Part shown: positions 2,125 through 33,199 of the stretch, one piece after another
Numbering within the stretch: position 1 is the first letter of the stretch
Layout: every line of letters begins with the position of its first letter
Source: Escherichia phage forsur
Sequence record: MN850617.1
Length of the DNA stretch: 42,476 nt
Direction: 5' to 3' (one strand)
Program-made: the position numbers and the translations under genes
Notes under the pieces: model-generated
What the model was told of the DNA's origin: nothing
The model's input: the letters and a program-made list of their open reading frames with translations, nothing else
The model's database searches: none

Positions 2125-4559
2125 TGATGGACTTACTTGCTGAGCAGATTCGACTGGAAGAAGAAGCGCGAGCCAGACACCGCGAGGGCTGGCTGGATAA
2201 TATCAGAGAGGCGTTGGCCGCTGGCCGGGCTGGTTCAGTACCATTGCTCCAGCGTATGATGGTTGAGGCGTATCCTCAAGTTGAAGCTGCGATGCAAGAA
2301 CTCCTGAATGAAACTGCCCGTGGCTATGGTGCGCAGTACCGGACATACATGCGGGAGCTGGGGCCGCGAGCTTGTGCCTCACTCGCGTTGAGCATGGCTG
2401 TGTCCGGTGCCGCTGCTGAGCAAGCAGTGCTTAACTTGCTCAAGGACATGGGCAAGGCTCTCATGGCTGAGGTGGTGTACCTTCGGGCCAAGGCTGCCGG
2501 GCCTGTGCAGGCTGCGTACATGGCCAAGGTTAAGACTGACGTTAAGCGCTCTCGTTCCAAGTCAGCTAACCATGTGTATAACAAGGCGAAAGCGTCGGCG
2601 TCTAACGTTGGCGTTGAGCTGGATATCCTGCCACAGCGTGCGCTCATCACCATTGGTAAGATGATGATGAAGTGCATCGAGCCTACTGGTCTGCTGGTCA
2701 CTATGCGTGTCGGCGGCAACCACCGTCAGCGCGGCACCGCGCACTTCGCACTGCATGAAGATGTGCTGGCAACGATGAAAGATTGGATGGACTTGCCACG
2801 GGCAGACGGCCTGTGCTGTCCTCCAATGATTATCCCGCCAGCGCAGATTGCACGCGATGGTCGTAGTGGTATGTGGCACTCGCCGGGGCAGGCTGCCATG
2901 TACCGGGCAATCAGCCGCATGAACCACCGTGGCTACCGTGCGCTGGGTGTTGACCCACTGCCCATCATAGAGCCGTGTATGATGCTCAGCAGCGTTCCGT
3001 ACCGAGTTAACCCAATGGTATTGGAGTTCCTGAGAACGAACCGTACAGGCGTTATGGGGCTGCCTGTGCCGCCTCGTGAGCCTAAGCTCCCGTTCACCAT
3101 CCCGGCTGGTGTCAGCTTCGCTCAGTACATTAGCAAGTTCCCACCAGAAATGCAGCAGCAGATGGAGTCGGAAGCCCACGAGTACAAGGTGAAGACCCGT
3201 CTGTATTACAACGAGCTGCGCAAGTTCACGTCACAAATGCTGGCGCTGAACGGTGCAGTCAAAGAGGCCGAGCGCTATGCGCCATACGATAGGGTATATC
3301 TCCCGACTTACGCCGATACGCGGGGCCGAATTTATTATTCTTCGACCCTTAACCCTCAGTCCATCGACGCGGTGCGAGCGCTGCTCGAACTTGCTGAACC
3401 AGTGGCTCTCGGAGACGAGGGGCTGTTCTGGCTCAAGGTACATGTTGCGAATTGTTTTGGATACGACGCCACCGACTTCGACGACCGGGCGGCGTGGACG
3501 GACAAAACACTCCCCCGACTACGTGAGGCGTGCCGTCTTCCAGAGGCATTTGATTCGTTCTGGTCAGAAGCCGATAGCCCTATCTCAGCGTGGGCTGCTG
3601 CTGTTGAACTCATTCGAGCTATCGACTCAGGAAGTCCTGAGACTTATCCCTGCCGAGTGGTTACGCAGTGGGACGCTACATGTTCAGGACTCCAGCACCT
3701 CAGTGCGATGCTACGCGATGAGGTTGGAGGTGCTGCTGTCAATCTTGTCGATAGCGTGGGAAGAAAAGCAGACATATATCTTAAGACGGCAGCAGCGGCG
3801 ATGCAGGCTCTTGAAGAAAGTGAAGCGGCTGCGCCGACGACAATGGGTTCGTGGCTTGTTTCCATCGGCATTGTTCGGGCTATGGCCAAGAAGCCAGTGA
3901 TGACCTACGTGTACGGGGCAACCCGGCACGGCATGGTTGACTACTACTGCCTGTATCTGCGTGAGAACCGGGTCAAGCTGCCGGAGGGTAAGAGCCTGCT
4001 GGAGTGTGCTCAGTTCATTGCTGAGTTTATGTGGGCTGCTATCCCCCGCGTCGTGCCGAAAGCTGCCGAGCTGATGGCATGGTTGCAGGCTATCGCAGTA
4101 GAGGCTGCGAGCATGGGTGAGTACGTGGAGTTCACTGCGCCGTCCGGTCTTCGTGTGGTCAATCTGTATCAGGCCAGCAAAGAGATTGCGCTGAACAACA
4201 TCAACCTCATGGGTATCCACGGCATCAAGCTGCGCGAGTATCTGGATAAGCCAGATGGTCGCAAGTGTGCCGCTGCGATTGCTCCGAATTTTGTACACGC
4301 CATGGATGCCAGTCACATGATGAAGGTTCTGTGGGAGATGTGGAATAACGGGGTATACATGGTATCCATCCACGACTCGTTCGGTGTAGCGGCAGCCCAT
4401 GCTGGGTTACTGCACAAGGTCATCCGTGAAAAGTTTGTGCAGATGTATGAGGAATGTGACCCTATTCAGCAACTTGCGTCAGCATATAACCGTGAAGCTC
4501 CAGCTCGCGGTAATCTGGACATCCAGCTTGTGAAGAAATCAAGCAAGTTCTTCTGCTGA
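2124..4559 (+). CDS. T7-like single-subunit DNA-dependent RNA polymerase (811 aa)
   Basis: KKPVMTYVYGATRHG (motif B-like) and SIHDSFG (motif C catalytic Asp). Size and position (just before the structural genes) fit phiKMV-type phages. Confidence 0.95.
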   Translation: MMDLLAEQIRLEEEARARHREGWLDNIREALAAGRAGSVPLLQRMMVEAYPQVEAAMQELLNETARGYGAQYRTYMRELGPRACASLALSMAVSGAAAEQAVLNLLKDMGKALMAEVVYLRAKAAGPVQAAYMAKVKTDVKRSRSKSANHVYNKAKASASNVGVELDILPQRALITIGKMMMKCIEPTGLLVTMRVGGNHRQRGTAHFALHEDVLATMKDWMDLPRADGLCCPPMIIPPAQIARDGRSGMWHSPGQAAMYRAISRMNHRGYRALGVDPLPIIEPCMMLSSVPYRVNPMVLEFLRTNRTGVMGLPVPPREPKLPFTIPAGVSFAQYISKFPPEMQQQMESEAHEYKVKTRLYYNELRKFTSQMLALNGAVKEAERYAPYDRVYLPTYADTRGRIYYSSTLNPQSIDAVRALLELAEPVALGDEGLFWLKVHVANCFGYDATDFDDRAAWTDKTLPRLREACRLPEAFDSFWSEADSPISAWAAAVELIRAIDSGSPETYPCRVVTQWDATCSGLQHLSAMLRDEVGGAAVNLVDSVGRKADIYLKTAAAAMQALEESEAAAPTTMGSWLVSIGIVRAMAKKPVMTYVYGATRHGMVDYYCLYLRENRVKLPEGKSLLECAQFIAEFMWAAIPRVVPKAAELMAWLQAIAVEAASMGEYVEFTAPSGLRVVNLYQASKEIALNNINLMGIHGIKLREYLDKPDGRKCAAAIAPNFVHAMDASHMMKVLWEMWNNGVYMVSIHDSFGVAAAHAGLLHKVIREKFVQMYEECDPIQQLASAYNREAPARGNLDIQLVKKSSKFFC

Positions 4560-4584
4560 ATAAAGCATTGTATTCCTTGCTTAT

Positions 4585-4607
4585 TTATGAAAGTGACTAT
4601 AGTGATA
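4585..4607 (+). promoter_or_regulatory. phage-RNAP promoter candidate P1 (TTATGAAAGTGACTATA|GTGATA)
   Basis: 23-nt motif with T7/SP6-like architecture (AT-rich -17..-13, CTATA at -5..-1, G at +1 = 4602). It lies in the gap after the RNAP gene at the head of the late operon. A perfect inverted copy is at 26463..26485 and near copies at 4852 and 33177. Confidence 0.6.
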
Positions 4608-4852: not shown

Positions 4853-4874
4853 AATGAAAGTGACTATTATGGGA
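4852..4874 (+). promoter_or_regulatory. weaker phage-promoter-like copy P2 (AAATGAAAGTGACTATT|ATGGGA)
   Basis: 14-nt identity (ATGAAAGTGACTAT) to P1, but -1/+1 diverge. It overlaps the start of the GNAT gene. Confidence 0.3.
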
Positions 4875-25939: not shown

Positions 25940-26455
25940 ATGCGTGGGCCTCCCTCGACCCGAATGACCGCGCGTACCCCCATGACGTGTGCGCGGATTA
26001 GCCTCGCGACGTGCGCGATATTGCTCGCGTGCGCTGCGCGGCGCGTCAAGAGGATTGCCTGCGTGCGGTATAGCTCGTGCGTGTCGCGTTTCATCGTCTG
26101 CCGTGTGGCGTGCTGTGCGCTGTCCTGCTGGCTGTGCTGTGCGGTGCTGTCCTATGGGGACGCTCTGCGCTGGCTGTGCTGTGCTGCGTGCTGCGCTCGG
26201 TCGGGCGGGTATCTGTCTCTTTTGCCGTGGTACGCTCTGCGCCGTGGTGGTGCTGTGTGGTGGTGGTGCTGCCGTGGTGCTGTCCTGTCTGCTGGTCTAC
26301 TGTCTGCGCCGCCAGCTCTGCGCGTCATGCTCTGCTACCTGCTGCTACTGTCCTACTGCGTTCACTGGCTGCCGCCTGTCATCCTGTCGGATTCCATCCG
26401 TTGCCGTTCCGCGCTCGCTTGTTTCGGCTGCGCCGCGCTCGCTCTGCGTATCTAG
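25940..26455. repeat. GC-rich, A-depleted (+ strand) low-complexity tract with short degenerate direct repeats; probable location of the collapsed terminal repeat / concatemer junction
   Basis: By hand count there are about 15 A in 26101..26450, with A-free runs of 53, 50 and 66 nt. Recurring GCTGTGCTGTGC, GGTGCTGTCCTG, GCCGTGGT and CGCTCTGCGC units. Confidence 0.7.
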
Positions 26456-26462
26456 CGATACA

Positions 26463-26485
26463 TATCACTATAGTCACTTTCATAA
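26463..26485 (-). promoter_or_regulatory. phage-RNAP promoter candidate P3, inverted (leftward) perfect copy of P1
   Basis: The reverse complement of 26463..26485 equals TTATGAAAGTGACTATAGTGATA, identical to 4585..4607. Predicted +1 is the G complementary to 26468, transcribing toward 25940. Confidence 0.5.
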
Positions 26486-26622
26486 TTATCTATTGATATC
26501 AGTAACTTATAACCTATCTGATAACGGTATCTATCCTATGCAATAACCTATTCAATCAAATATTTATTCCTAATGATTACAGTAACTTATCCACTATTTG
26601 AGCTATTCAGTGAAAATAAATC

Positions 26623-26651
26623 TTGCAATGCTGTTTGTGATTTGCTGTAAT
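26623..26651 (+). promoter_or_regulatory. sigma70 early promoter candidate PE0
   Basis: TTGCAA (26623-26628), 17-nt spacer, extended -10 TGcTGTAAT (TGTAAT at 26646-26651). Confidence 0.55.
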
Positions 26652-26726
26652 TCTCATCGCCGGGTAGCAGAACATCGCTACACGGTGGCAAGACGGTAAC
26701 ACTGCTCTTTAACAATCTGGAGTGTA

Positions 26727-26755
26727 TTGACAAGGCAAGCTCACTATGCTGTAAT
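26727..26755 (+). promoter_or_regulatory. sigma70 early promoter PE1
   Basis: Consensus TTGACA (26727-26732), 17-nt spacer, extended -10 TGcTGTAAT (26750-26755). Confidence 0.8.
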
Positions 26756-26863
26756 GCTTCCAGTCAGCCAGACAAGCCAAACAGTCATGGATAAAGACGT
26801 TAAAACCCGCGCAGGCTAACTGGTACGGATTATTCATCTCAGAATGGGCGCTGAATAAAACGG

Positions 26864-26892
26864 TTGACAGGATGAAACGAGTATGCTGTAAT
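26864..26892 (+). promoter_or_regulatory. sigma70 early promoter PE2
   Basis: TTGACA (26864-26869), 17-nt spacer, TGcTGTAAT (26887-26892). Confidence 0.8.
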
Positions 26893-26944
26893 ACGCTCCA
26901 GATTGACAGGGCAAGCAAGCCTGACAGTCAGTAGTAAAAAGTAG

Positions 26945-26973
26945 TTGACAAGCTGAATACACTGTGTTGTAAT
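26945..26973 (+). promoter_or_regulatory. sigma70 early promoter PE3
   Basis: TTGACA (26945-26950), 17-nt spacer, TGtTGTAAT (26968-26973). Confidence 0.8.
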
Positions 26974-27451
26974 CAGCACCGAGTTGGAAGGATGCAAAAC
27001 ATCCTGCTCTGAGTGAACGCAAACTGGCCGCGTAGTGTCACGGCTCACTGGGTATCCGCCGCAGGTTGGAACTGGGTGAGGCATCGCCGAAAGGCAACGG
27101 TATCGCAACAATGCTAACGCCGTAGGGGTAGCGCCTGATGCAAGGTAACGGAGAAGCGCGATAGACGCAGCGCAGTATCAGTACAATACCAAACGTCTTA
27201 TAAGGCGCGGAGTATAGCGGGTAGGTAGTCAAACGGCTTGTTAGCTGGCAACGGTGAGCAAGATACGCGACGGACTGCTGGAAGACTCCTGAGAGTGGAT
27301 GCAGACAATATCCACAGCGCGAAATGGGCGGGGCGATTTTTCAGGGTAGTGAATCCGACAAGCCAATCAATGCCACTGAGTGCAGACTGTACGGCGCGTC
27401 ACAATGGGTTCACTATCCACCTGAAAATAGCCAACAACTGGAGAAATAACT

Positions 27452-27844
27452 ATGTACCGTATCTATGCAAGCGCATATCGTCAGAACAACGCTGAGTGTG
27501 TTAATCTGGCGCTTCATTGCAAGGCACTGCGAACGGTGCAGGATATGTTCGGAGTGATTCCGGTCACACTGACAGGCAAGTTCGACAATGCGTATGAGTT
27601 AAGCATGGTCTTTCCTGTCGATGGAATCTACGAAATCAGACAGGCTGTTAAGCTGTTCTGTAAAGCCTTTGAACAGGACTGCATCATGGTAGTGACCGAT
27701 GACAATGATGCAATCTTCATGGATTCACCATATCCGGGCAAGCCTGCTGGCAAGTTTGTCAGCAAGACAGAAGCGGAGATGGAAGCCGGGCAGTTCACTG
27801 CTTGGACTTACGATGGTGAGCAATTTTGGGTAGTGGAGGCGTAA
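27452..27844 (+). CDS. first early protein, T3 gp0.3-like SAM hydrolase/lyase candidate (130 aa)
   Basis: GGAG upstream. Block resemblance to T3 SAMase as I recall it (ASAYRQNNAECVNL.. vs VSAFRSNLCDEVNM..; FCKAFEQDCIMVV vs ACNEWEQDCVLVY). Occupies the first early gene position. Confidence 0.5.
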   Translation: MYRIYASAYRQNNAECVNLALHCKALRTVQDMFGVIPVTLTGKFDNAYELSMVFPVDGIYEIRQAVKLFCKAFEQDCIMVVTDDNDAIFMDSPYPGKPAGKFVSKTEAEMEAGQFTAWTYDGEQFWVVEA

Positions 27845-27845
27845 T

Positions 27846-27917
27846 ATGTTCACTGCACTCTGTGTGATAGCGGCGGCGTGCTGGCTGATTGACCAGCGCC
27901 TGTCTAAGCGAGCCTGA
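27846..27917 (+). CDS. micro-ORF, 23-aa hydrophobic peptide
   Basis: Strong GGAGG 6 nt upstream. MFTALCVIAAACWLIDQRLSKRA. Confidence 0.4.
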   Translation: MFTALCVIAAACWLIDQRLSKRA

Positions 27918-27918
27918 T

Positions 27919-28002
27919 ATGTGGGACTTACTGGTAGCGTTGTTCTGGTTTGTCTTTGCAGGCTTGTGGATTTACTGGTTGACTCGTCCCAAATTATGGT
28001 GA
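27919..28002 (+). CDS. micro-ORF, 27-aa hydrophobic peptide
   Basis: ATG 1 nt after the previous stop. MWDLLVALFWFVFAGLWIYWLTRPKLW (single TMD). Confidence 0.4.
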   Translation: MWDLLVALFWFVFAGLWIYWLTRPKLW

Positions 28003-28008
28003 CTGCCT

Positions 28009-28030
28009 AATGCGTCTTGCGAGGCGCATT
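28009..28030 (+). repeat. intergenic stem-loop, UUGCGA-loop family (copy 1; no GGCAAT box)
   Basis: AATGCGTC-TTGCGA-GGCGCATT, 8-bp stem. Confidence 0.7.
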
Positions 28031-28066
28031 GTGAAGTAACCAACCAACAACCCGACGAGGTGTATC

Positions 28067-28594
28067 ATGACTACTGTTAAATATACTGCATTCAAAGATG
28101 CTGCGGCGCTGGACAAAGCTATCGAAGCGACTGTCAAAAAGGCGCACTCACTCCGTAACGATATTCAGAATGTTGCGGTCGGTATTATCCTGCACGCTTA
28201 CCATCACGGCGACTACACTCGTGCTGAGTCGTTCACTCACCAACTGGGTGATGGCGTCCGTGGTAAGGCACTGGTTGACTGGTTCGTCCAGTTCGGCGGC
28301 CTGATTGTGGGTGAGCATGAAGATGGCAAGTCCGGCTTCGTTGGCTGGAAGGGTGCCGACTTCATCAAAGAGAACATCGACAAGGCGAAAGCCACGATGT
28401 GGTGGACTTGCAAGCCAGAAGCGGCCTTTGATGGCTTCGACCTGCAAGATGCGCTCGAAAAGCTGATTGCCAAAGCTGAAAAGGCAATGAACAAGGCGAA
28501 CGAGCTGCGCCACGAAGGGCGCGATGAGGATGCGAACAAGGTTGTCGTGCCTCAGAACGTGCTGGACGGCCTGCGCAAGCTGAAAGCTGCGTAA
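28067..28594 (+). CDS. hypothetical early protein (175 aa)
   Basis: GAGG upstream. Helical and Lys/Ala-rich, with no recognisable motif. Confidence 0.7.
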   Translation: MTTVKYTAFKDAAALDKAIEATVKKAHSLRNDIQNVAVGIILHAYHHGDYTRAESFTHQLGDGVRGKALVDWFVQFGGLIVGEHEDGKSGFVGWKGADFIKENIDKAKATMWWTCKPEAAFDGFDLQDALEKLIAKAEKAMNKANELRHEGRDEDANKVVVPQNVLDGLRKLKAA

Positions 28595-28607
28595 GCGGGA
28601 TTGACTC

Positions 28608-28644
28608 AAGCCATCTTGCGAGGTGGCTTTATGGCAATTCTGCC
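28608..28644 (+). repeat. intergenic stem-loop (UUGCGA loop) plus GGCAATTCTGCC box (copy 2)
   Basis: AAGCCATC-TTGCGA-GGTGGCTT. The box starts 11 nt after the loop. Confidence 0.7.
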
Positions 28645-28667
28645 CCAACAATTACGGAGTATCATCC

Positions 28668-28952
28668 ATGACCACTAAAACTGTTCTGGCCTACGTCACC
28701 AAGAAAGGCGAAGAAGTGTACGGCTATGCTGTGTCTATCGACGGCGGCCACAACTACCTGCATCACGTTCGTGAAGAAGGTGAACCGACTGACCACGATG
28801 GCATTCTGGAAACGCTGAAAGGCATCCCGCTGCCGCACGAAATCATCTGTATGCTGGCTGGCCAGACGGAAGATGACCTGCAACTGCGTCACGGCGACGA
28901 CCTGACCATTCAGGGTATCGGCAGCTTCGAAGCTGACGTAGACGACGAATAA
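28668..28952 (+). CDS. acidic early protein ending ..GSFEADVDDE (94 aa)
   Basis: Start trimmed to ATG 28668 (ACGGAG upstream). The track's start at 28623 lies inside the conserved hairpin/box element. Confidence 0.65.
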   Translation: MTTKTVLAYVTKKGEEVYGYAVSIDGGHNYLHHVREEGEPTDHDGILETLKGIPLPHEIICMLAGQTEDDLQLRHGDDLTIQGIGSFEADVDDE

Positions 28953-28963
28953 GCGTTGTCCTG

Positions 28964-29000
28964 CTGCATCCTTGCGAGGGTGCAGCGTGGCAATACTGCC
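28964..29000 (+). repeat. intergenic stem-loop (UUGCGA loop) plus GGCAATACTGCC box (copy 3)
   Basis: CTGCATCC-TTGCGA-GGGTGCAG. The box starts 11 nt after the loop. Confidence 0.7.
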
Positions 29001-29025
29001 TTATTCCAATCTGAGGATTAATCCT

Positions 29026-29106
29026 ATGTCTACACTGAAACTGGTACTGATTTCTAACATCGCTGCTGACGCTTTCGACGCTGATGACGTGGACTTCTCT
29101 GCGTGA
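29026..29106 (+). CDS. 26-aa acidic mini-ORF (MSTLKLVLISNIAADAFDADDVDFSA), resembling the C-terminal tail of the neighbouring paralogs
   Basis: TGAGGA upstream. Preceded by the same hairpin/box element as the full-length genes. Confidence 0.4.
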   Translation: MSTLKLVLISNIAADAFDADDVDFSA

Positions 29107-29112
29107 TACCTT

Positions 29113-29150
29113 ACTGCCTCGTTGCGACGGGGCAGTGCGGCAATCATGCC
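29113..29150 (+). repeat. intergenic stem-loop (UUGCGA loop) plus GGCAATCATGCC box (copy 4)
   Basis: ACTGCCTCG-TTGCGA-CGGGGCAGT. The box starts 11 nt after the loop. Confidence 0.7.
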
Positions 29151-29171
29151 CAACCTAACTGGAGATTTACC

Positions 29172-29453
29172 ATGGCTACAATCAACGTGTATTCCCTGAG
29201 CAACGGCGGTCTGGCATTCATCGCTGGTGATAAGGTAGACGAAGCGCCGTCGCTGGGCGTGACGCCGAAACCGGAGGCCAGCCGTGATGATGTTATCGCG
29301 GAAGTCAAGGGTGCGCTGGAAGACCTCGGCGGTCTGCTGTTCGTCCTGAATGGTGGCAAGCTGTCGGTTGAAAAGCTGGACGCGCTGGAACCTGTCTTTG
29401 TTGAGAGCTTCGAAGCTGACAACATCGACCTCGCTGCTTTCGCTGACGCCTAA
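29172..29453 (+). CDS. acidic early protein, paralog A (93 aa, MATINVY.. ..ESFEADNIDLAAFADA)
   Basis: Start trimmed to ATG 29172 (TGGAGA upstream). Clear paralog of 29791..30099. Confidence 0.75.
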   Translation: MATINVYSLSNGGLAFIAGDKVDEAPSLGVTPKPEASRDDVIAEVKGALEDLGGLLFVLNGGKLSVEKLDALEPVFVESFEADNIDLAAFADA

Positions 29454-29491
29454 GCATAACCCGAAACCCACAACCAAAGAGGACAATCAAC

Positions 29492-29722
29492 ATGGCTAAG
29501 TTTGAACTGGTACGCTTCATTGACCCGAACGATGGCGAAGAAACCTTCGCGCAGTTTGCTGATGACCGCTCGCTGGTCGCCATCTACAACACTGAGCGCA
29601 CGGCGCGGCGCTGGTTCAAGGAAGACGACGACATGGACAGCATCGAAGAAGCGCTGGCTATGCCGGGCTACGCTGAGGCTGTCGAGGCAGCACTGAAAGG
29701 CGAAGTCGTAGCGACTGCGTGA
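29492..29722 (+). CDS. acidic early protein (76 aa)
   Basis: AAGAGGA upstream. Confidence 0.65.
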   Translation: MAKFELVRFIDPNDGEETFAQFADDRSLVAIYNTERTARRWFKEDDDMDSIEEALAMPGYAEAVEAALKGEVVATA

Positions 29723-29729
29723 TTTCTGT

Positions 29730-29768
29730 CAGCCCATCCATAGCGGTGGGCTGTAGGGCAATCATGCC
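29730..29768 (+). repeat. intergenic stem-loop (CAUAGC loop) plus GGCAATCATGCC box (copy 5)
   Basis: CAGCCCATC-CATAGC-GGTGGGCTG. The box starts 12 nt after the loop. Confidence 0.65.
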
Positions 29769-29790
29769 ACAACAACTGAGGGTATACACC

Positions 29791-30099
29791 ATGGCAACTA
29801 TCAACGTCTACAAAACTATCACTGGCTCACTGGTATTCGTAGTGGGTGAACTGCGTGAAGATGCACCAATCGTTGGCGTGTCTCTGCGTGAAGGGGCAAC
29901 CGAGGCTGACGCCATCGCTGAGATTCGTCAGAACATTGAGAACCTCGGCGGCCTGTTCTTCCTGCTGCAAGGTGGCAGCCTGAACCTCGCTAAGTTGCAG
30001 GAGCATGAGCCTGTACTCGTGACCAGCTTCGAAGCGGAAGATGTAGACGCCAGTGACTTCGAAGCCAGCCGCGCTGACGAAGAAGAAGCAGGCGAGTAA
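29791..30099 (+). CDS. acidic early protein, paralog B (102 aa, MATINVY.. ..TSFEAEDVDASDFEASRADEEEAGE)
   Basis: Start trimmed to ATG 29791 (TGAGGG upstream). Aligns along its full length with 29172..29453. Confidence 0.75.
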   Translation: MATINVYKTITGSLVFVVGELREDAPIVGVSLREGATEADAIAEIRQNIENLGGLFFLLQGGSLNLAKLQEHEPVLVTSFEAEDVDASDFEASRADEEEAGE

Positions 30100-30212
30100 T
30101 GAGCGCCATCGAGGTGGCACTGATGTTGGGCTGTCATGCAGGTATTGGCAGCCTCGTCATCTACATCGTTGGCGCGGCACGCAAATCATACGATAGGAGA
30201 ACCAAGCTATGA
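30099..30212 (+). CDS. micro-ORF, 37-aa membrane peptide
   Basis: TAATG overlap with the upstream stop. One TMD (GIGSLVIYIVGAA) followed by a basic tail. Confidence 0.4.
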   Translation: MSAIEVALMLGCHAGIGSLVIYIVGAARKSYDRRTKL

Positions 30213-30385
30213 AGTTTGCAGTATCGCGCAGCGGTGCAAGCCATGCGGCACACAAGTTGCACTTCCTGTTCCACTCGCTGTACCTTACAGCGGCTGCGAT
30301 GGAGGGTCACTTGTTCTATAGCCTCATGGCTGGCGGCACCTTACTGTTCATGGTTGGCACGGCGGTGCTGGGCAATGAACATTAA
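30209..30385 (+). CDS. small membrane protein (58 aa)
   Basis: AGGAGA about 9 nt upstream, ATGA overlap. Below the ORF-track cutoff. Preferred over the track's 30136 and 30216 frames, which lack an RBS. Confidence 0.45.
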   Translation: MKFAVSRSGASHAAHKLHFLFHSLYLTAAAMEGHLFYSLMAGGTLLFMVGTAVLGNEH

Positions 30386-30548
30386 TCTGTTACAACGGGT
30401 CAAGGGTATGGAGCGTCGGCACTGGGAGACGGCCATCATCCTTAAGGTAAGCATAAGCGCTGGACTGGCTGCTGCTTATTTCCTGCCAACCACCGCAGCA
30501 ATAGCCGTTGGTATCAGCACCAACCTGCTATGGTTGTGGAAGTTGTAA
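30375..30548 (+). CDS. small membrane protein (57 aa)
   Basis: Internal ATG of track ORF 30216..30548. Two hydrophobic segments. The upstream part of the track ORF is Cys/Arg-rich, out-of-frame-looking sequence. Confidence 0.45.
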   Translation: MNINLLQRVKGMERRHWETAIILKVSISAGLAAAYFLPTTAAIAVGISTNLLWLWKL

Positions 30549-30562
30549 GCAGTGGATTACTC

Positions 30563-30589
30563 AAGGCTGTCCAGCGGGTAGCCTTTTTG
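30563..30589 (+). terminator. rho-independent terminator candidate within the early region
   Basis: AAGGCT-(11-nt loop)-AGCCTT followed by a TTTTT run (30584-30588). Confidence 0.5.
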
Positions 30590-30612
30590 AAATCCATTGA
30601 CGAGAGGGGAGC

Positions 30613-30951
30613 ATGGCACTACATCGAGTGAAGGTAATGCGTGGGCCTGACTTCGAAGACGGGCAAGAGATTGCTGCATTGCAGTACCGCTTGCCGTCCG
30701 GTCAGGAGGGGCTGGTCATCATTGACCAGATTGAAATCATGGGTGAGCACATGCTGATTGCTGATGCCACCGATGAGCAAATCATTGAGCGCTGCAAGGC
30801 ATACGCCGGGGGCAGACCGTTCATCATCGACCTGATGAATGACCAGCACATCAATGCTGATGGTTCGCTGCTGTTCAAGGCATGGCTTTATGCTCTCACA
30901 ACAATCTACGAAGGGGAGATGTATCTCTTTGGCGTAGACAACGAGGGTTAA
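30613..30951 (+). CDS. hypothetical early protein (112 aa)
   Basis: GAGAGGGGAG upstream. Confidence 0.7.
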   Translation: MALHRVKVMRGPDFEDGQEIAALQYRLPSGQEGLVIIDQIEIMGEHMLIADATDEQIIERCKAYAGGRPFIIDLMNDQHINADGSLLFKAWLYALTTIYEGEMYLFGVDNEG

Positions 30952-30954
30952 ATC

Positions 30955-31269
30955 ATGAAGGTAAGCAAAGGATATCTGTTCGTGCTGTTGATGCTGGCCA
31001 CCCTGTATCTCAGCACCGTGCATGTGGCACTGGCAGCCACTGTGGAGAAGGTGCATTTGGATGCGTATGACGTACCGCTGGGCGCACCTGATGGACAGGT
31101 GTACTCTGCTTGCGTCATTGACCTACGCAAAGGCGGCACTGTCAGCACACTGGCCTACGTTGGTGAGTGTGAGGATGTGCTGCCACACCTGAAAGAAAAG
31201 CTGGAGCATGATGGCGTGACCACCATCGTGACTCTCTCAATCAACGGTCATAACATCAACCTAACGTGA
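30955..31269 (+). CDS. secreted/periplasmic early protein (104 aa)
   Basis: N-terminal signal peptide MKVSKGYLFVLLMLATLYLSTVHVALA|AT. GAGGG upstream. Confidence 0.7.
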   Translation: MKVSKGYLFVLLMLATLYLSTVHVALAATVEKVHLDAYDVPLGAPDGQVYSACVIDLRKGGTVSTLAYVGECEDVLPHLKEKLEHDGVTTIVTLSINGHNINLT

Positions 31270-31277
31270 GGTTTTAT

Positions 31278-31529
31278 ATGAGCACTCAAGCTAAGATTGT
31301 AATTCTGCGCAACGACTATGGCCGTCCTACTCCGTTCGGCACCTTCTGTCCGTTCCTCGATACCATTGAGGGTAAAGAGTACGATGTACTCATCCTTGAG
31401 CCGGGCGAAGTGGACGCCGAAGGGGATGAAGTTGACAAGCGCTCGGTCAGTTTCCGCGATGAAGTGGGTGACTTAGCTGGCGCACACATTGACTACCATG
31501 AAGGTAAGTCATTCAAGTTCGTCGAGTAA
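31278..31529 (+). CDS. hypothetical acidic early protein (83 aa)
   Basis: Start trimmed to ATG 31278 (GAGG 6 nt upstream). Confidence 0.65.
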   Translation: MSTQAKIVILRNDYGRPTPFGTFCPFLDTIEGKEYDVLILEPGEVDAEGDEVDKRSVSFRDEVGDLAGAHIDYHEGKSFKFVE

Positions 31530-33142: not shown

Positions 33143-33176
33143 CCATCTACTCATGCCAGTTATTATTTAGCTGGCA

Positions 33177-33199
33177 TTATGAAGGTGACTATATTGGAC
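33177..33199 (+). promoter_or_regulatory. phage-RNAP promoter candidate P4 (TTATGAAGGTGACTATA|TTGGAC)
   Basis: 16 of 17 identity to P1 over -17..-1. Intergenic, at the head of the replication module. Directly preceded by the hairpin ATGCCAG-(11 nt)-CTGGCAT (33153..33177). Confidence 0.55.

What the first reader, a model, noticed from the sequence alone, without database searches (positions are those of the whole stretch)
28668..30099. Array of paralogous acidic early proteins sharing an SFEA(D/E) acidic/aromatic C-terminal tail, including a 26-aa tail-only mini-gene
Seen in sequence: 29172..29453 and 29791..30099 are clear paralogs. Both start MATINVY, both have LGGLxFxLxGG, and both end EPVxVxSFEA(D/E).

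Four consecutive products end with a similar motif:
- ..GSFEADVDDE;
- ..AADAFDADDVDFSA (26-aa ORF 29026..29106);
- ..ESFEADNIDLAAFADA;
- ..TSFEAEDVDASDFEASRADEEEAGE.

Each gene is preceded by the hairpin/GGCAAT element.

Inference: the tails resemble the acidic, Phe-containing C-terminal tips used by SSB and T7 gp2.5/gp4 for partner binding. The proteins could therefore be competitive mimics that hijack or block host SSB-interacting enzymes, or DNA mimics of the Ocr type. The duplication pattern suggests an evolving anti-host or anti-defence cassette.
Basis: partly seen in the sequence, partly recalled or inferred. Interest (0 to 1): 0.65.

Follow-up and report, generated by a model that had tools for sequence, protein, structure and literature searches.

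The report
Small acidic early-protein cassettes of a coliphage
This is a real but functionally unknown set of small acidic early proteins in a T7-like coliphage. The shared "SFEA" ending is the last beta-strand of their fold, and the 26-residue "mini-gene" is a deletion remnant of a 112-residue gene.

Summary
The window is Escherichia phage forsur (Bonnellvirus, Autographiviridae). Region 28668-30099 lies in the host-transcribed early operon, two genes after the SAM-lyase anti-restriction gene.

**Confirmed**
- 29172-29453 and 29791-30099 are paralogs (47% identity, E=1e-28).
- SFEA occurs three times in the proteome, always near an array protein's C-terminus (0.15 expected).
- Four of the five ORFs follow a hairpin plus a GGCAATNNTGCC box.

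**Corrected**
- The 26-aa ORF is a 258-bp in-frame deletion of a 112-aa gene that is intact in phage glasur. The deletion lies between 11-bp repeats. Its "AADAFDADDV" is N-terminal sequence, not a tail.
- AlphaFold2 places SFEA in the last core beta-strand. Only 3-20 residues beyond it form a variable acidic extension.
- No tail ends in Phe, so the SSB/gp2.5-tip criterion fails.
- No Ocr-like sequence or fold match was found.

**New**
- The array holds three subfamilies that are probably distantly related.
- They diverge faster than neighbouring genes (38-71% versus 91-94% identity).
- Three independent microhomology deletions hit the array in close relatives.
- The intergenic linkers are conserved as far as Pantoea phage LIMEzero, where the coding sequences are not.

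**Best reading:** dispensable, fast-evolving early host-interaction cassettes with unknown targets.

The parts
26727..26973 (+). Context: three strong sigma-70 promoters (TTGACA-N17-TGTAAT at 26727-26755, 26864-26892 and 26945-26973). They start the early operon that contains the array.
   Evidence: Read directly from the sequence. All genes downstream are on the + strand.
27452..27844 (+). Context: SAM lyase ('anti-restriction SAMase'), the first early gene.
   Evidence: phrog_2226, E=7.7e-30. Annotated as anti-restriction SAMase in glasur. PF23780 on the ortholog in L012.
28067..28594 (+). Context: conserved 175-aa early protein of unknown function. It is preceded by a hairpin (28009-28030) without a GGCAAT box.
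   Evidence: phrog_1448, E=3e-52. 91-96% identical across Bonnellvirus.
28609..28644 (+). Linker 1: hairpin (about 28609-28629) plus GGCAATTCTGCC box (28633-28644).
   Evidence: deltaG -12.0; covariation.
28668..28952 (+). gpA, 94 aa, net charge -14, ends ...LTIQGIGSFEADVDDE. SFEA (residues 86-89) lies inside the predicted last beta-strand (79-91).
   Evidence: AF2 pLDDT 82. Orthologs 57-76% identical, ending ...IGT[FY]EA[DE]VDDE.
28962..29000 (+). Linker 2: hairpin (about 28962-28987) plus GGCAATACTGCC box (28989-29000).
   Evidence: (deltaG -17.7).
29026..29106 (+). gpB remnant, 26 aa. It is the in-frame 258-bp deletion derivative of a 112-aa gene. The single retained copy of the 11-bp repeat TGATGACGTGG is at 29082-29092.
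   Evidence: Comparison with glasur L001 2561-2899, where the repeats lie at 2617 and 2875, 258 bp apart.
29112..29150 (+). Linker 3: hairpin (about 29112-29137) plus GGCAATCATGCC box (29139-29150).
   Evidence: (deltaG -17.1). 86% identical to LIMEzero L011 4649-4698.
29172..29453 (+). gpC, 93 aa, net charge -11. Predicted order b-b-b-a-a-a-b. SFEA is residues 79-82 of strand 75-82. The extension DNIDLAAFADA (83-93) has lower confidence.
   Evidence: pLDDT 89.7, pTM 0.81.
29492..29722 (+). gpD, 76 aa, net charge -10, an unrelated small acidic protein. It has no SFEA tail and no hairpin/box upstream (38-nt spacer), so it forms a two-gene unit with gpC.
   Evidence: The ortholog in J8-65 carries an added acidic tail ...DTLDDDEE.
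29730..29768 (+). Linker 4: hairpin (29730-29753) plus GGCAATCATGCC box (29757-29768).
   Evidence: (deltaG -16.8). 85% identical to LIMEzero L011 3917-3988.
29791..30099 (+). gpE, 102 aa, net charge -15, a paralog of gpC. It ends ...LVTSFEAEDVDASDFEASRADEEEAGE. In most relatives this slot holds a 94-96-aa third-branch paralog ending ...IGSFEV.

Best explanation
The region is an array of small (76-112 aa), strongly acidic, globular early proteins. They are made from the host-RNA-polymerase early transcript of a Bonnellvirus podophage.

**Family.** At least three members belong to one alpha/beta family: gpC, gpE and the gpE' type found in relatives. gpA-like and gpB-like proteins are probably very distant members of the same superfamily.

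**The motif.** The shared [G/x]-S/T-F-E-[A/V/I] motif is the last beta-strand of the core. After it comes a short acidic extension of 0-20 residues. This extension is variable and often contains phi-D-x(2-3)-F.

**Cassette organisation.** Each gene, or gene pair, is a cassette behind a conserved linker. The linker is a sense-strand hairpin, an invariant GGCAATNN(T/C)GCC box, a CA-rich leader and a Shine-Dalgarno sequence.

**Inferred function (not shown).** The proteins are dispensable, rapidly diversifying host-interaction factors, either host-takeover or anti-defence. Each would bind and block a host protein, probably one that binds nucleic acid, through its acidic surface and extension. The linkers would give each cistron its own translation and stability context. 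They would also serve as homology patches for swapping cassettes between phages.

**The 26-aa ORF.** It is a non-functional or at best vestigial deletion remnant.
For: **Shown**
- Identity and position in the early operon.
- gpC/gpE paralogy.
- A third branch (gpE'...GSFEV) is joined by profile search and by fold. The gpC model hits BFVD A0A6C6XYR4, 94 aa, TM 0.74, E=7e-5.
- AF2 models are confident. Both gpC and gpA show b-b-b-helices-b, with SFEA in the last strand.
- Enriched profile-profile comparisons: gpC family versus gpA family, E=0.0013 over 83 collinear columns; gpC family versus gpB family, E=0.0064.
- GSF[DE]-type endings also occur in gpB-like proteins of other contigs...ELGSFDLDEDD and ...ELPSFDTEDEAA.
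- These are the most acidic proteins of the genome, with D+E at 18-24% against about 11% typical.
- Fast divergence between glasur and HHU8: gpA 71%, gpB 38%, gpC 67%. The neighbours are slower: SAM lyase 94%, 175-aa protein 91%.
- Slot replacement and varying copy content among relatives.
- Three independent microhomology deletions in forsur, usur and ROV85. forsur and usur were isolated on E. coli K-12 MG1655 (PMC7552041). Hence the genes are not essential for plaque formation.
- Linkers: 6 of 8 hairpin pairs show compensatory changes, with G-U pairs on the sense strand. The box is invariant in 24 unique copies.
- Between forsur and LIMEzero the linkers are the only detectable DNA similarity inside the array.
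Against: - The host-interaction role therefore rests on position, composition and evolutionary behaviour only.
- The superfamily link of gpA and gpB to gpC is weak. hhalign probabilities are at most 19%. Foldseek did not place the gpC-family entries matched by the gpC model among the 50 listed hits of the gpA model.
- Acidic composition can inflate profile scores.
- The natural deletions could be neutral laboratory or assembly variants rather than evidence of an accessory role.
- The role of the linker is not established: no Rfam hit, no sigma-70 promoter, no U-tract.
Confidence: 0.5

Rival explanations
1. SSB-Ct / T7 gp2.5-type tip mimicry. The acidic, Phe-containing tails compete with host SSB, or with the phage replisome tails, for their partner pockets.
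For: - The tails are acidic and contain Phe: DDDDDVDFSA in full-length gpB, DVDASDFE in gpE, IDLAAFADA in gpC.
- The gpC extension is predicted with lower confidence, which fits flexibility.
Against: - In no array protein is Phe the last residue. One to thirteen residues follow it.
- SSB with one extra C-terminal Gly has no detectable affinity for chi (PMC3045619).
- The terminal Phe of gp2.5 is essential, according to paper titles listed in the reference list of PMC12339929.
- The SFEA part is a core strand.
- Extensions are lacking in gpE'-type members and differ widely in other relatives.
Confidence: 0.07
2. Ocr/ArdA-type DNA mimicry. The proteins imitate the charge pattern of DNA and block restriction, BREX or other DNA-binding defence enzymes.
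For: - Net charge is -11 to -20 in about 100 residues.
- They lie in the early operon next to another anti-restriction gene.
- They are dispensable on K-12.
Against: - No Ocr or other Pfam hit at E<=1 beyond noise.
- No PDB sequence relative.
- The predicted fold is a compact beta-sheet/helix domain.
- All early proteins here are acidic, so acidity is not specific to the array.
Confidence: 0.12
3. The shared ending reflects a DNA-level element or gene conversion, not protein function. SFEA is encoded by the perfect palindrome AGCTTCGAAGCT, which would be the selected or copied unit.
For: - AGCTTCGAAGC occurs exactly three times in the window, only at the three SFEA sites.
- gpA and gpC share 15 identical nucleotides there.
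Against: - Orthologs keep the peptide but not the palindrome. They read T-F-E-A, T-Y-E-A, S-W-E-A, S-F-E-V and T-F-E-I, where Thr codons and Val/Ile codons break the symmetry.
- AGC, TTC and GAA are ordinary codons for Ser, Phe and Glu (my own knowledge; codon usage was not measured here).
- The motif sits at the same structural position in two independent models.
Confidence: 0.05
4. Evolutionary filler. The ORFs are expressed but have no current function, persisting as neutral passengers between conserved linkers.
For: - Repeated natural deletions and truncations occur.
- No homolog has a known function.
Against: - Open reading frames, start signals and the core motifs are kept across Bonnellvirus, LIMEzero (Waewaevirus) and uncultivated 43-44-kb viral contigs, despite 20-40% identity.
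- AF2 predicts well-packed domains from shallow alignments.
- Podophage genomes of 42 kb rarely carry a kilobase or more of useless coding sequence (my own knowledge).
Confidence: 0.1

Closest known systems
Class I (early) non-essential genes of T7/T3-like phages, such as T3 SAM lyase, T7 Ocr (gp0.3) and gp0.4-0.7, and the early ORFans of phiKMV-like phages
   Same: - Small, mostly acidic proteins encoded at the genome's leading end.
- Transcribed by host RNA polymerase from a cluster of strong promoters.
- Dispensable in laboratory hosts and variable between relatives.
- The neighbouring gene here is a SAM lyase.
   Different: - No sequence or fold relationship to any characterised member.
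- Here several paralogous copies of one scaffold sit in tandem.
- Each copy lies behind a conserved linker.
C-terminal acidic tips of E. coli SSB (DDDIPF) and T7 gp2.5/gp4
   Same: Short acidic stretch with a Phe near the C-terminus, attached to a folded domain.
   Different: - Phe is never the terminal residue.
- There is no Pro-Phe.
- The motif is not conserved across the family.
- The most conserved part (SFEA) is a structural strand.
PeSL (promoter-early stem-loop) elements of T4-type phages and 'boundary sequences' of lambdoid phages (from my own knowledge, not tested against those sequences)
   Same: - Short conserved intergenic modules with a stem-loop flank small early ORFan genes.
- They are better conserved than the genes themselves, which suits them as recombination patches for cassette shuffling.
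   Different: - No sigma-70 promoter is present in the linker (reading).
- The conserved box GGCAATNN(T/C)GCC has no known counterpart.
- Recombination at these sites has not been demonstrated.
Pantoea phage LIMEzero ORF6-ORF9 and LIMElight E1Y3Y1/E1Y3Y2 (uncharacterised)
   Same: - Same gene order: SAM-lyase-like ORF1, the ORF2 homolog, then an array of small acidic proteins behind hairpin+GGCAAT linkers.
- Foldseek matches to the gpA and gpC models.
   Different: - Only 23-33% protein identity.
- Tails differ (...YTDEFDA, ...DLPSINVA, ...VYEVLAA, ...MEHALVV).
- The phages belong to different genera and infect different hosts.

Membership tests
SSB-Ct / gp2.5-type acidic C-terminal tip | The last residue is Phe with a free alpha-carboxylate. 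SSB+Gly loses chi binding (PMC3045619). | tested here: not met
   Endings are ...SFEADVDDE...DVDFSA...AAFADA and ...DFEASRADEEEAGE. Relatives end ...DFE...DFDA and ...EFVAAVA.
SSB-Ct / gp2.5-type acidic C-terminal tip | The tip is strictly conserved among homologs. | tested here: not met
   gpE'-type members stop at ...GSFEV or ...TFEIEG. gpA-like and gpB-like relatives end ...IVDEAA...VFGAAA and ...FSVESAA.
SSB-Ct / gp2.5-type acidic C-terminal tip | The tip is a flexible peptide separate from the folded core. | tested here: inconclusive
   SFEA is in the last beta-strand. Only residues 83-93 of gpC (pLDDT about 60-82) and the last 3 residues of gpA lie outside it.
SSB-Ct / gp2.5-type acidic C-terminal tip | Binds the SSB-Ct pockets of partner enzymes. 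| not testable with these tools
   Needs binding assays or complex prediction.
Ocr/ArdA-type DNA-mimic proteins | Sequence membership (Pfam Ocr/ArdA families). | tested here: not met
   No such hit at E<=1 in Pfam. No PDB sequence relative.
Ocr/ArdA-type DNA-mimic proteins | Fold similar to a known DNA mimic. | tested here: not met
Ocr/ArdA-type DNA-mimic proteins | Very high negative charge density arranged like DNA phosphates. | tested here: inconclusive
   Net charge is -11 to -20 and D+E is 18-24%.
   - gpC-gpE: E=1e-28.
- gpC-gpE' are joined by profile and by fold.
- gpC family versus gpA family: E=0.0013, probability 19%.
- gpC family versus gpB family: E=0.0064.
- gpA family versus gpB family: E=0.056.
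- gpD is unrelated.
Intrinsic (Rho-independent) terminator, considered for the hairpins | GC-rich hairpin followed by a U-tract. | tested here: not met
   The hairpins are present (deltaG -12 to -20), but GGCAAT follows them rather than a T-run. The terminator scan does not report them.
Sigma-70 promoter or PeSL-type promoter stem-loop, considered for the linker | -35 and -10 hexamers at 16-18 nt spacing. | tested here: not met
   No promoter-like site at any linker. The TTGCGA in the loops is not conserved in relatives.
T7-like phage RNA-polymerase promoter, considered for the GGCAAT box | Same consensus as the phage's own promoters at conserved positions. | tested here: not met
   - The candidate forsur promoters read TTATGAA(A/G)GTGACTATA (4584-4601 and 33177-33195).
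- LIMEzero's annotated promoters read AAAGGCAA(T/G)CACTA.
- The box is the same in both phages although the promoters differ.

The most novel reading that the evidence does not exclude
The array is a library of 'decoy' proteins. One small alpha/beta scaffold displays interchangeable C-terminal acidic-hydrophobic short linear motifs (phi-D-x2-3-F) that imitate the C-terminal partner-binding peptides of host hub proteins.

- One candidate hub is SSB. Another is FtsZ: its tip is KEPDYLDIPAFLRKQAD, and the gpC tail is ADNIDLAAFADA.
- Through such mimicry the phage would jam several host interaction networks or defence sensors at once.
- The conserved hairpin-GGCAAT linkers would be dedicated recombination and expression modules that let phages of different genera trade these decoys.
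Probability: 0.1. Interest if true: 0.7.

Novelty: new member of a known kind. Interest (0 to 1): 0.35.

Why it matters
- If these proteins are host-interaction or anti-defence factors, they add an uncharacterised family with a fold that has no solved relative. That family belongs to the small set of early 'takeover' proteins of T7-like phages.
- Nature has already supplied a near-isogenic deletion series. glasur is intact, forsur lacks most of gpB, and usur lacks gpC through gpE plus two small membrane ORFs. This makes the question cheap to test.
- The linker is conserved across genera while the genes between it turn over. It is a compact example of modular cassette exchange, and possibly a new early-mRNA signal.
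- None of this is surprising in kind for phage early regions.

Tried and rejected
- **Family libraries.** PHROGs, Pfam, NCBIfam and PADLOC scans of all array proteins gave nothing meaningful.
- **PDB sequence search.** Profile searches with three family alignments returned only noise at E>=0.01.
- **Homolog searches.** HMMER against 1.84 billion representatives found only 10 hits, nine of them about 85-98 aa. One odd 1358-aa protein was not followed up. The word-indexed searches found only close phage relatives.
- **Linkers and Rfam.** Rfam on 26400-31500 gave no relevant family.
- **Linkers as known signals.** I rejected sigma-70 promoter, sigma-54 promoter (GG-to-GC spacing is wrong; my own reading), intrinsic terminator and the phage's own RNAP promoter.
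- **IMG/VR scan.** The 15-mer TAGGGCAATCATGCC gave 51 hits, about the number I would expect by chance (my rough estimate, not computed). Only four loci carried two or more boxes that are all preceded by stable hairpins.
- **Literature.** Searches on Bonnellvirus, J8-65 and LIMEzero found no functional work on these genes.
- **Model superposition.** The two AF2 models could not be superposed directly because coordinates are not exposed.
Full report
**What the window is.** The window is 98% identical over the tested 5 kb to Escherichia phage glasur (Autographiviridae, Bonnellvirus). The product of 28668-28952 is 100% identical to 'forsur_31', found on a 42,476-bp contig. That is the published length of phage forsur, MN850617, isolated on E. 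coli K-12 MG1655 (PMC7552041).

All genes are on the + strand. An AT-rich stretch and three strong sigma-70 promoters (TTGACA-N17-TGTAAT; 26727-26973) mark the start of the early operon. Its first gene is a SAM lyase, the 'anti-restriction SAMase' (27452-27844). Next comes a conserved 175-aa protein of unknown function (phrog_1448). The region in question follows.

**Check of the observation.**
- gpC (29172-29453) and gpE (29791-30099) are real paralogs: 47% identity over 90 residues, E=1e-28.
- SFEA is expected 0.15 times in the roughly 12,700-residue proteome. It occurs three times in genuine frames, each within the last 25 residues of gpA, gpC or gpE.
- The exact box GGCAATNNTGCC occurs four times in 42.5 kb. 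All four lie here, each just after a stable hairpin and 21-25 nt before a start codon.

Two points fail.
- The four products are not consecutive. gpD (29492-29722) lies between gpC and gpE, has no such tail, and has no hairpin/box upstream.
- The 26-aa 'tail-only mini-gene' is a deletion remnant. In glasur the same start codon opens a 112-aa gene (glasur_4). forsur lacks 258 bp (86 codons) between two copies of TGATGACGTGG and keeps one copy at 29082-29092. The stretch AADAFDADDV is therefore the conserved N-terminal segment of the full-length protein (alignment A7). Only DFSA is C-terminal.

**Anatomy of the proteins.** AlphaFold2 with shallow but diverse alignments gave confident models.
- gpC: pLDDT 89.7, pTM 0.81. 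Strands 2-8, 14-18 and 26-30; helices 38-52, 55-60 and 66-71; strand 75-82.
- gpA: pLDDT 82.1. Strands 2-13, 16-23 and 30-34; helices 43-51 and 68-75; strand 79-91.

In both models SFEA lies inside the last strand: VFVESFEA in gpC and LTIQGIGSFEADV in gpA. So the most conserved part of the 'tail' is a structural element. What remains outside the core is 3 residues in gpA, 11 in gpC (lower confidence, with a short helix over AAFA) and 20 in gpE.

**How wide the family is.**
- Word-indexed searches and a full HMMER scan of 1.84 billion representatives found only a handful of proteins, nearly all 85-102 aa. Several lie on contigs of about 42 kb.
- They define a third branch, gpE' (94-97 aa), ending ...IGSFEV...IGTFEIEG or ...ATFELDAA. 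This branch fills the gpE slot in HHU8, LF82-23, megetsur, RZ4 and Kc261.
- The alignment places SFE[AVI] in one column across all branches.
- The gpC model matches the BFVD model of a 94-aa gpE'-type protein at TM 0.74.
- Within the gpC/gpE branch the extension keeps a loose motif, phi-D-x(2-3)-[DA]-F. Examples are NIDLAAF, NVDAADF, DVDASDF, DIDASDF, GIDAEDF and EIDGADEF. The gpE' branch has no extension.

gpA-like and gpB-like proteins form two further sequence families, each with several forms in J8-65, Lidtsur and a Logan contig.
- Enriched profile-profile comparisons give E=0.0013 for gpC versus gpA (83 collinear columns, probability 19%).
- They give E=0.0064 for gpC versus gpB and E=0.056 for gpA versus gpB.
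- The secondary-structure order is the same in the two models.
- GSF[DE]-type endings recur in gpB-like proteins of other viral contigs.

I read this as a probable but unproven superfamily. Foldseek did not cross-match the families. The gpC-family BFVD entries that the gpC model matched do not appear among the 50 hits listed for the gpA model.

**The linkers.**
- Every box is preceded by a GC-rich hairpin of 9-12 pairs (deltaG -12 to -20 kcal/mol).
- In 16 unique copies from six phages, 6 of the 8 consensus pairs show double compensatory changes.
- Several copies use G-U pairs that exist only on the sense strand. This points to a structure in the mRNA or in the + DNA strand.
- GGCAAT is invariant. 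The possible GGCA/UGCC mini-stem is broken in two LIMEzero copies (CGCC), so the sequence rather than the pairing seems to matter.
- The element is none of the known signals I tested. It is not a sigma-70 promoter or an intrinsic terminator. It matches no Rfam family.
- It is also not the phage's own promoter. Candidate forsur promoters read TTATGAA(A/G)GTGACTATA, while LIMEzero's annotated promoters read AAAGGCAA(T/G)CACTA. The box is identical in both phages.
- Between forsur and LIMEzero (a different genus on a different host), blastn finds similarity inside the array only at the linkers, at 85-86%. The array proteins are 23-33% identical.
- Hairpin-plus-box linkers followed by small ORFs, most of them acidic (net charge -3 to -19), also occur in three uncultivated viral contigs, two of them 43-44 kb long.

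**Evolutionary behaviour.**
- Between glasur and HHU8 the SAM lyase and the 175-aa protein are 94% and 91% identical. gpA, gpB and gpC are 71%, 38% and 67% identical.
- Slot content differs between relatives.
- Three independent microhomology deletions hit the array:
  - forsur lost 258 bp inside gpB;
  - usur lost 1,115 bp, from codon 29 of gpC to the end of a 58-aa membrane ORF, through GCTGGGC;
  - Pantoea phage ROV85 fused the 175-aa protein to the C-terminal half of gpC through CC(A/G)GAAGC.
- These phages are viable isolates, so the genes are dispensable for plaque formation on their isolation hosts.

**Most likely mechanism.**
- *Shown:* early position, acidity, compact predicted fold, paralogy, rapid turnover and dispensability.
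- *Inferred:* these are accessory host-interaction proteins, for host takeover or anti-defence. Each would bind a host protein, with the acidic surface and extension contributing to binding. The linkers would insulate each cistron (hairpin, unstructured CA-rich leader, Shine-Dalgarno) and offer homology for cassette exchange.

I put about 0.5 on this overall reading. The specific target remains unknown.

**Rivals.**
- *SSB/gp2.5 tip mimicry* fails its defining feature. No tail ends in Phe, and one extra residue after the terminal Phe of SSB abolishes detectable chi binding (PMC3045619). The extension is also not conserved.
- *Ocr-type DNA mimicry* has only acidity in its favour. There is no sequence or fold link.
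- *A DNA-level explanation.* SFEA is encoded by the palindrome AGCTTCGAAGCT, present only at these three sites. This is unlikely to be the selected unit, because orthologs keep the peptide with non-palindromic codons.
- *Neutral filler* is hard to square with conservation of frames and motifs across genera.
- *A loose resemblance* exists between the gpC extension (ADNIDLAAFADA) and the FtsZ C-terminal peptide (DYLDIPAFLRK). It is a lead only. It does not hold for the other family members.

**Novelty and score.** The proteins are annotated 'hypothetical' in every relative's record examined here. They have no Pfam, PHROG or NCBIfam family and no solved relative. In kind, they are what phage biologists expect at the leading end of a T7-like genome: small, acidic, variable, non-essential early ORFans.

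The points worth keeping are the multi-branch family, the natural deletion series and the cross-genus linker.

- Interest: 0.35.
- Novelty: new member of a known kind.

Noticed in passing
window 29082-29092; L009 (usur) about 3005-3016; L007 (ROV85) about 1960-1985: Three independent microhomology-mediated deletions hit the same 1.5-kb array in closely related phages:
- forsur: 258 bp, in frame;
- usur: 1,115 bp, which truncates gpC to 32 aa and removes gpD, gpE and two small membrane ORFs;
- ROV85: about 1.1 kb, which fuses the 175-aa protein to the C-terminal half of gpC.
   Followed up: yes
window 28609-28644, 28962-29000, 29112-29150, 29730-29768; L011 (LIMEzero) 3610, 3957, 4333, 4687: The hairpin + GGCAATNN(T/C)GCC linkers are 85-86% identical between forsur and Pantoea phage LIMEzero, a different genus. 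They are the only DNA similarity blastn finds inside the array. Their function is unknown: not a promoter, terminator or Rfam family.
   Followed up: partly
window 28923-28934, 29406-29417, 30025-30035: SFEA is encoded by the perfect 12-nt palindrome AGCTTCGAAGCT (AGCTTCGAAGCG in gpE). The 11-mer AGCTTCGAAGC occurs only at these three sites in the genome, so the minus strand also reads SFEA at two of them.
   Followed up: partly
window 4584-4601, 33177-33195; also the 10-mer GAAAGTGACT at 4856 and 41464: - Likely promoters for the phage's own RNA polymerase read TTATGAA(A/G)GTGACTATA.
- The copy at 33177 follows a terminator-like hairpin (33154-33176), as in LIMEzero.
- LIMEzero's annotated phage promoters carry GGCAAT/GGCAAG at the aligned position. 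This is a curious partial match to the linker box.
   Followed up: partly
window 26974-27451: About 470 nt lie between the last early promoter and the SAM-lyase start codon, with no convincing ORF. This is a long leader of unknown role. There is no Rfam hit in 26400-31500.
   Followed up: no
window 30099-30212, 30209-30385, about 30375-30548: Two or three overlapping small hydrophobic ORFs (37, 58 and about 57 aa) follow gpE. The block is present in forsur, glasur, Lidtsur and L012. It is absent from HHU8, LF82-23, megetsur, RZ4, Kc261 and ROV85, and deleted in usur.
   Followed up: no
L005 (RZ4) 1386-1703 and 2770-3081; L007 (ROV85) 2474-2785; L010 (Lidtsur) 2558-2875; L012 2694-3056: In several relatives (four database records and one gene call on a Logan contig) the array genes are started at the ATG inside the GGCAAT(C)ATGCC box. 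This adds spurious N-terminal extensions such as MAILPQ... and MPQLTEG.... The box falls in different frames relative to the downstream genes, so it is not coding.
   Followed up: partly
L002 1411-1469; L004 381-439; L006 1057-1118; L008 2533-2610 and 2923-2988: A second linker type, TTACTGA-hairpin-GA(A/T)TGTAACC, precedes other small early genes in relatives. In J8-65 and Lidtsur it is combined with a GGCAATAATGCC box.
   Followed up: no
protein P0034: A 1358-aa protein matched the gpC-family profile in eight separate stretches (E=1.7e-7; best stretch is profile positions 10-42). It may be a repeat or compositional artefact.
   Followed up: no
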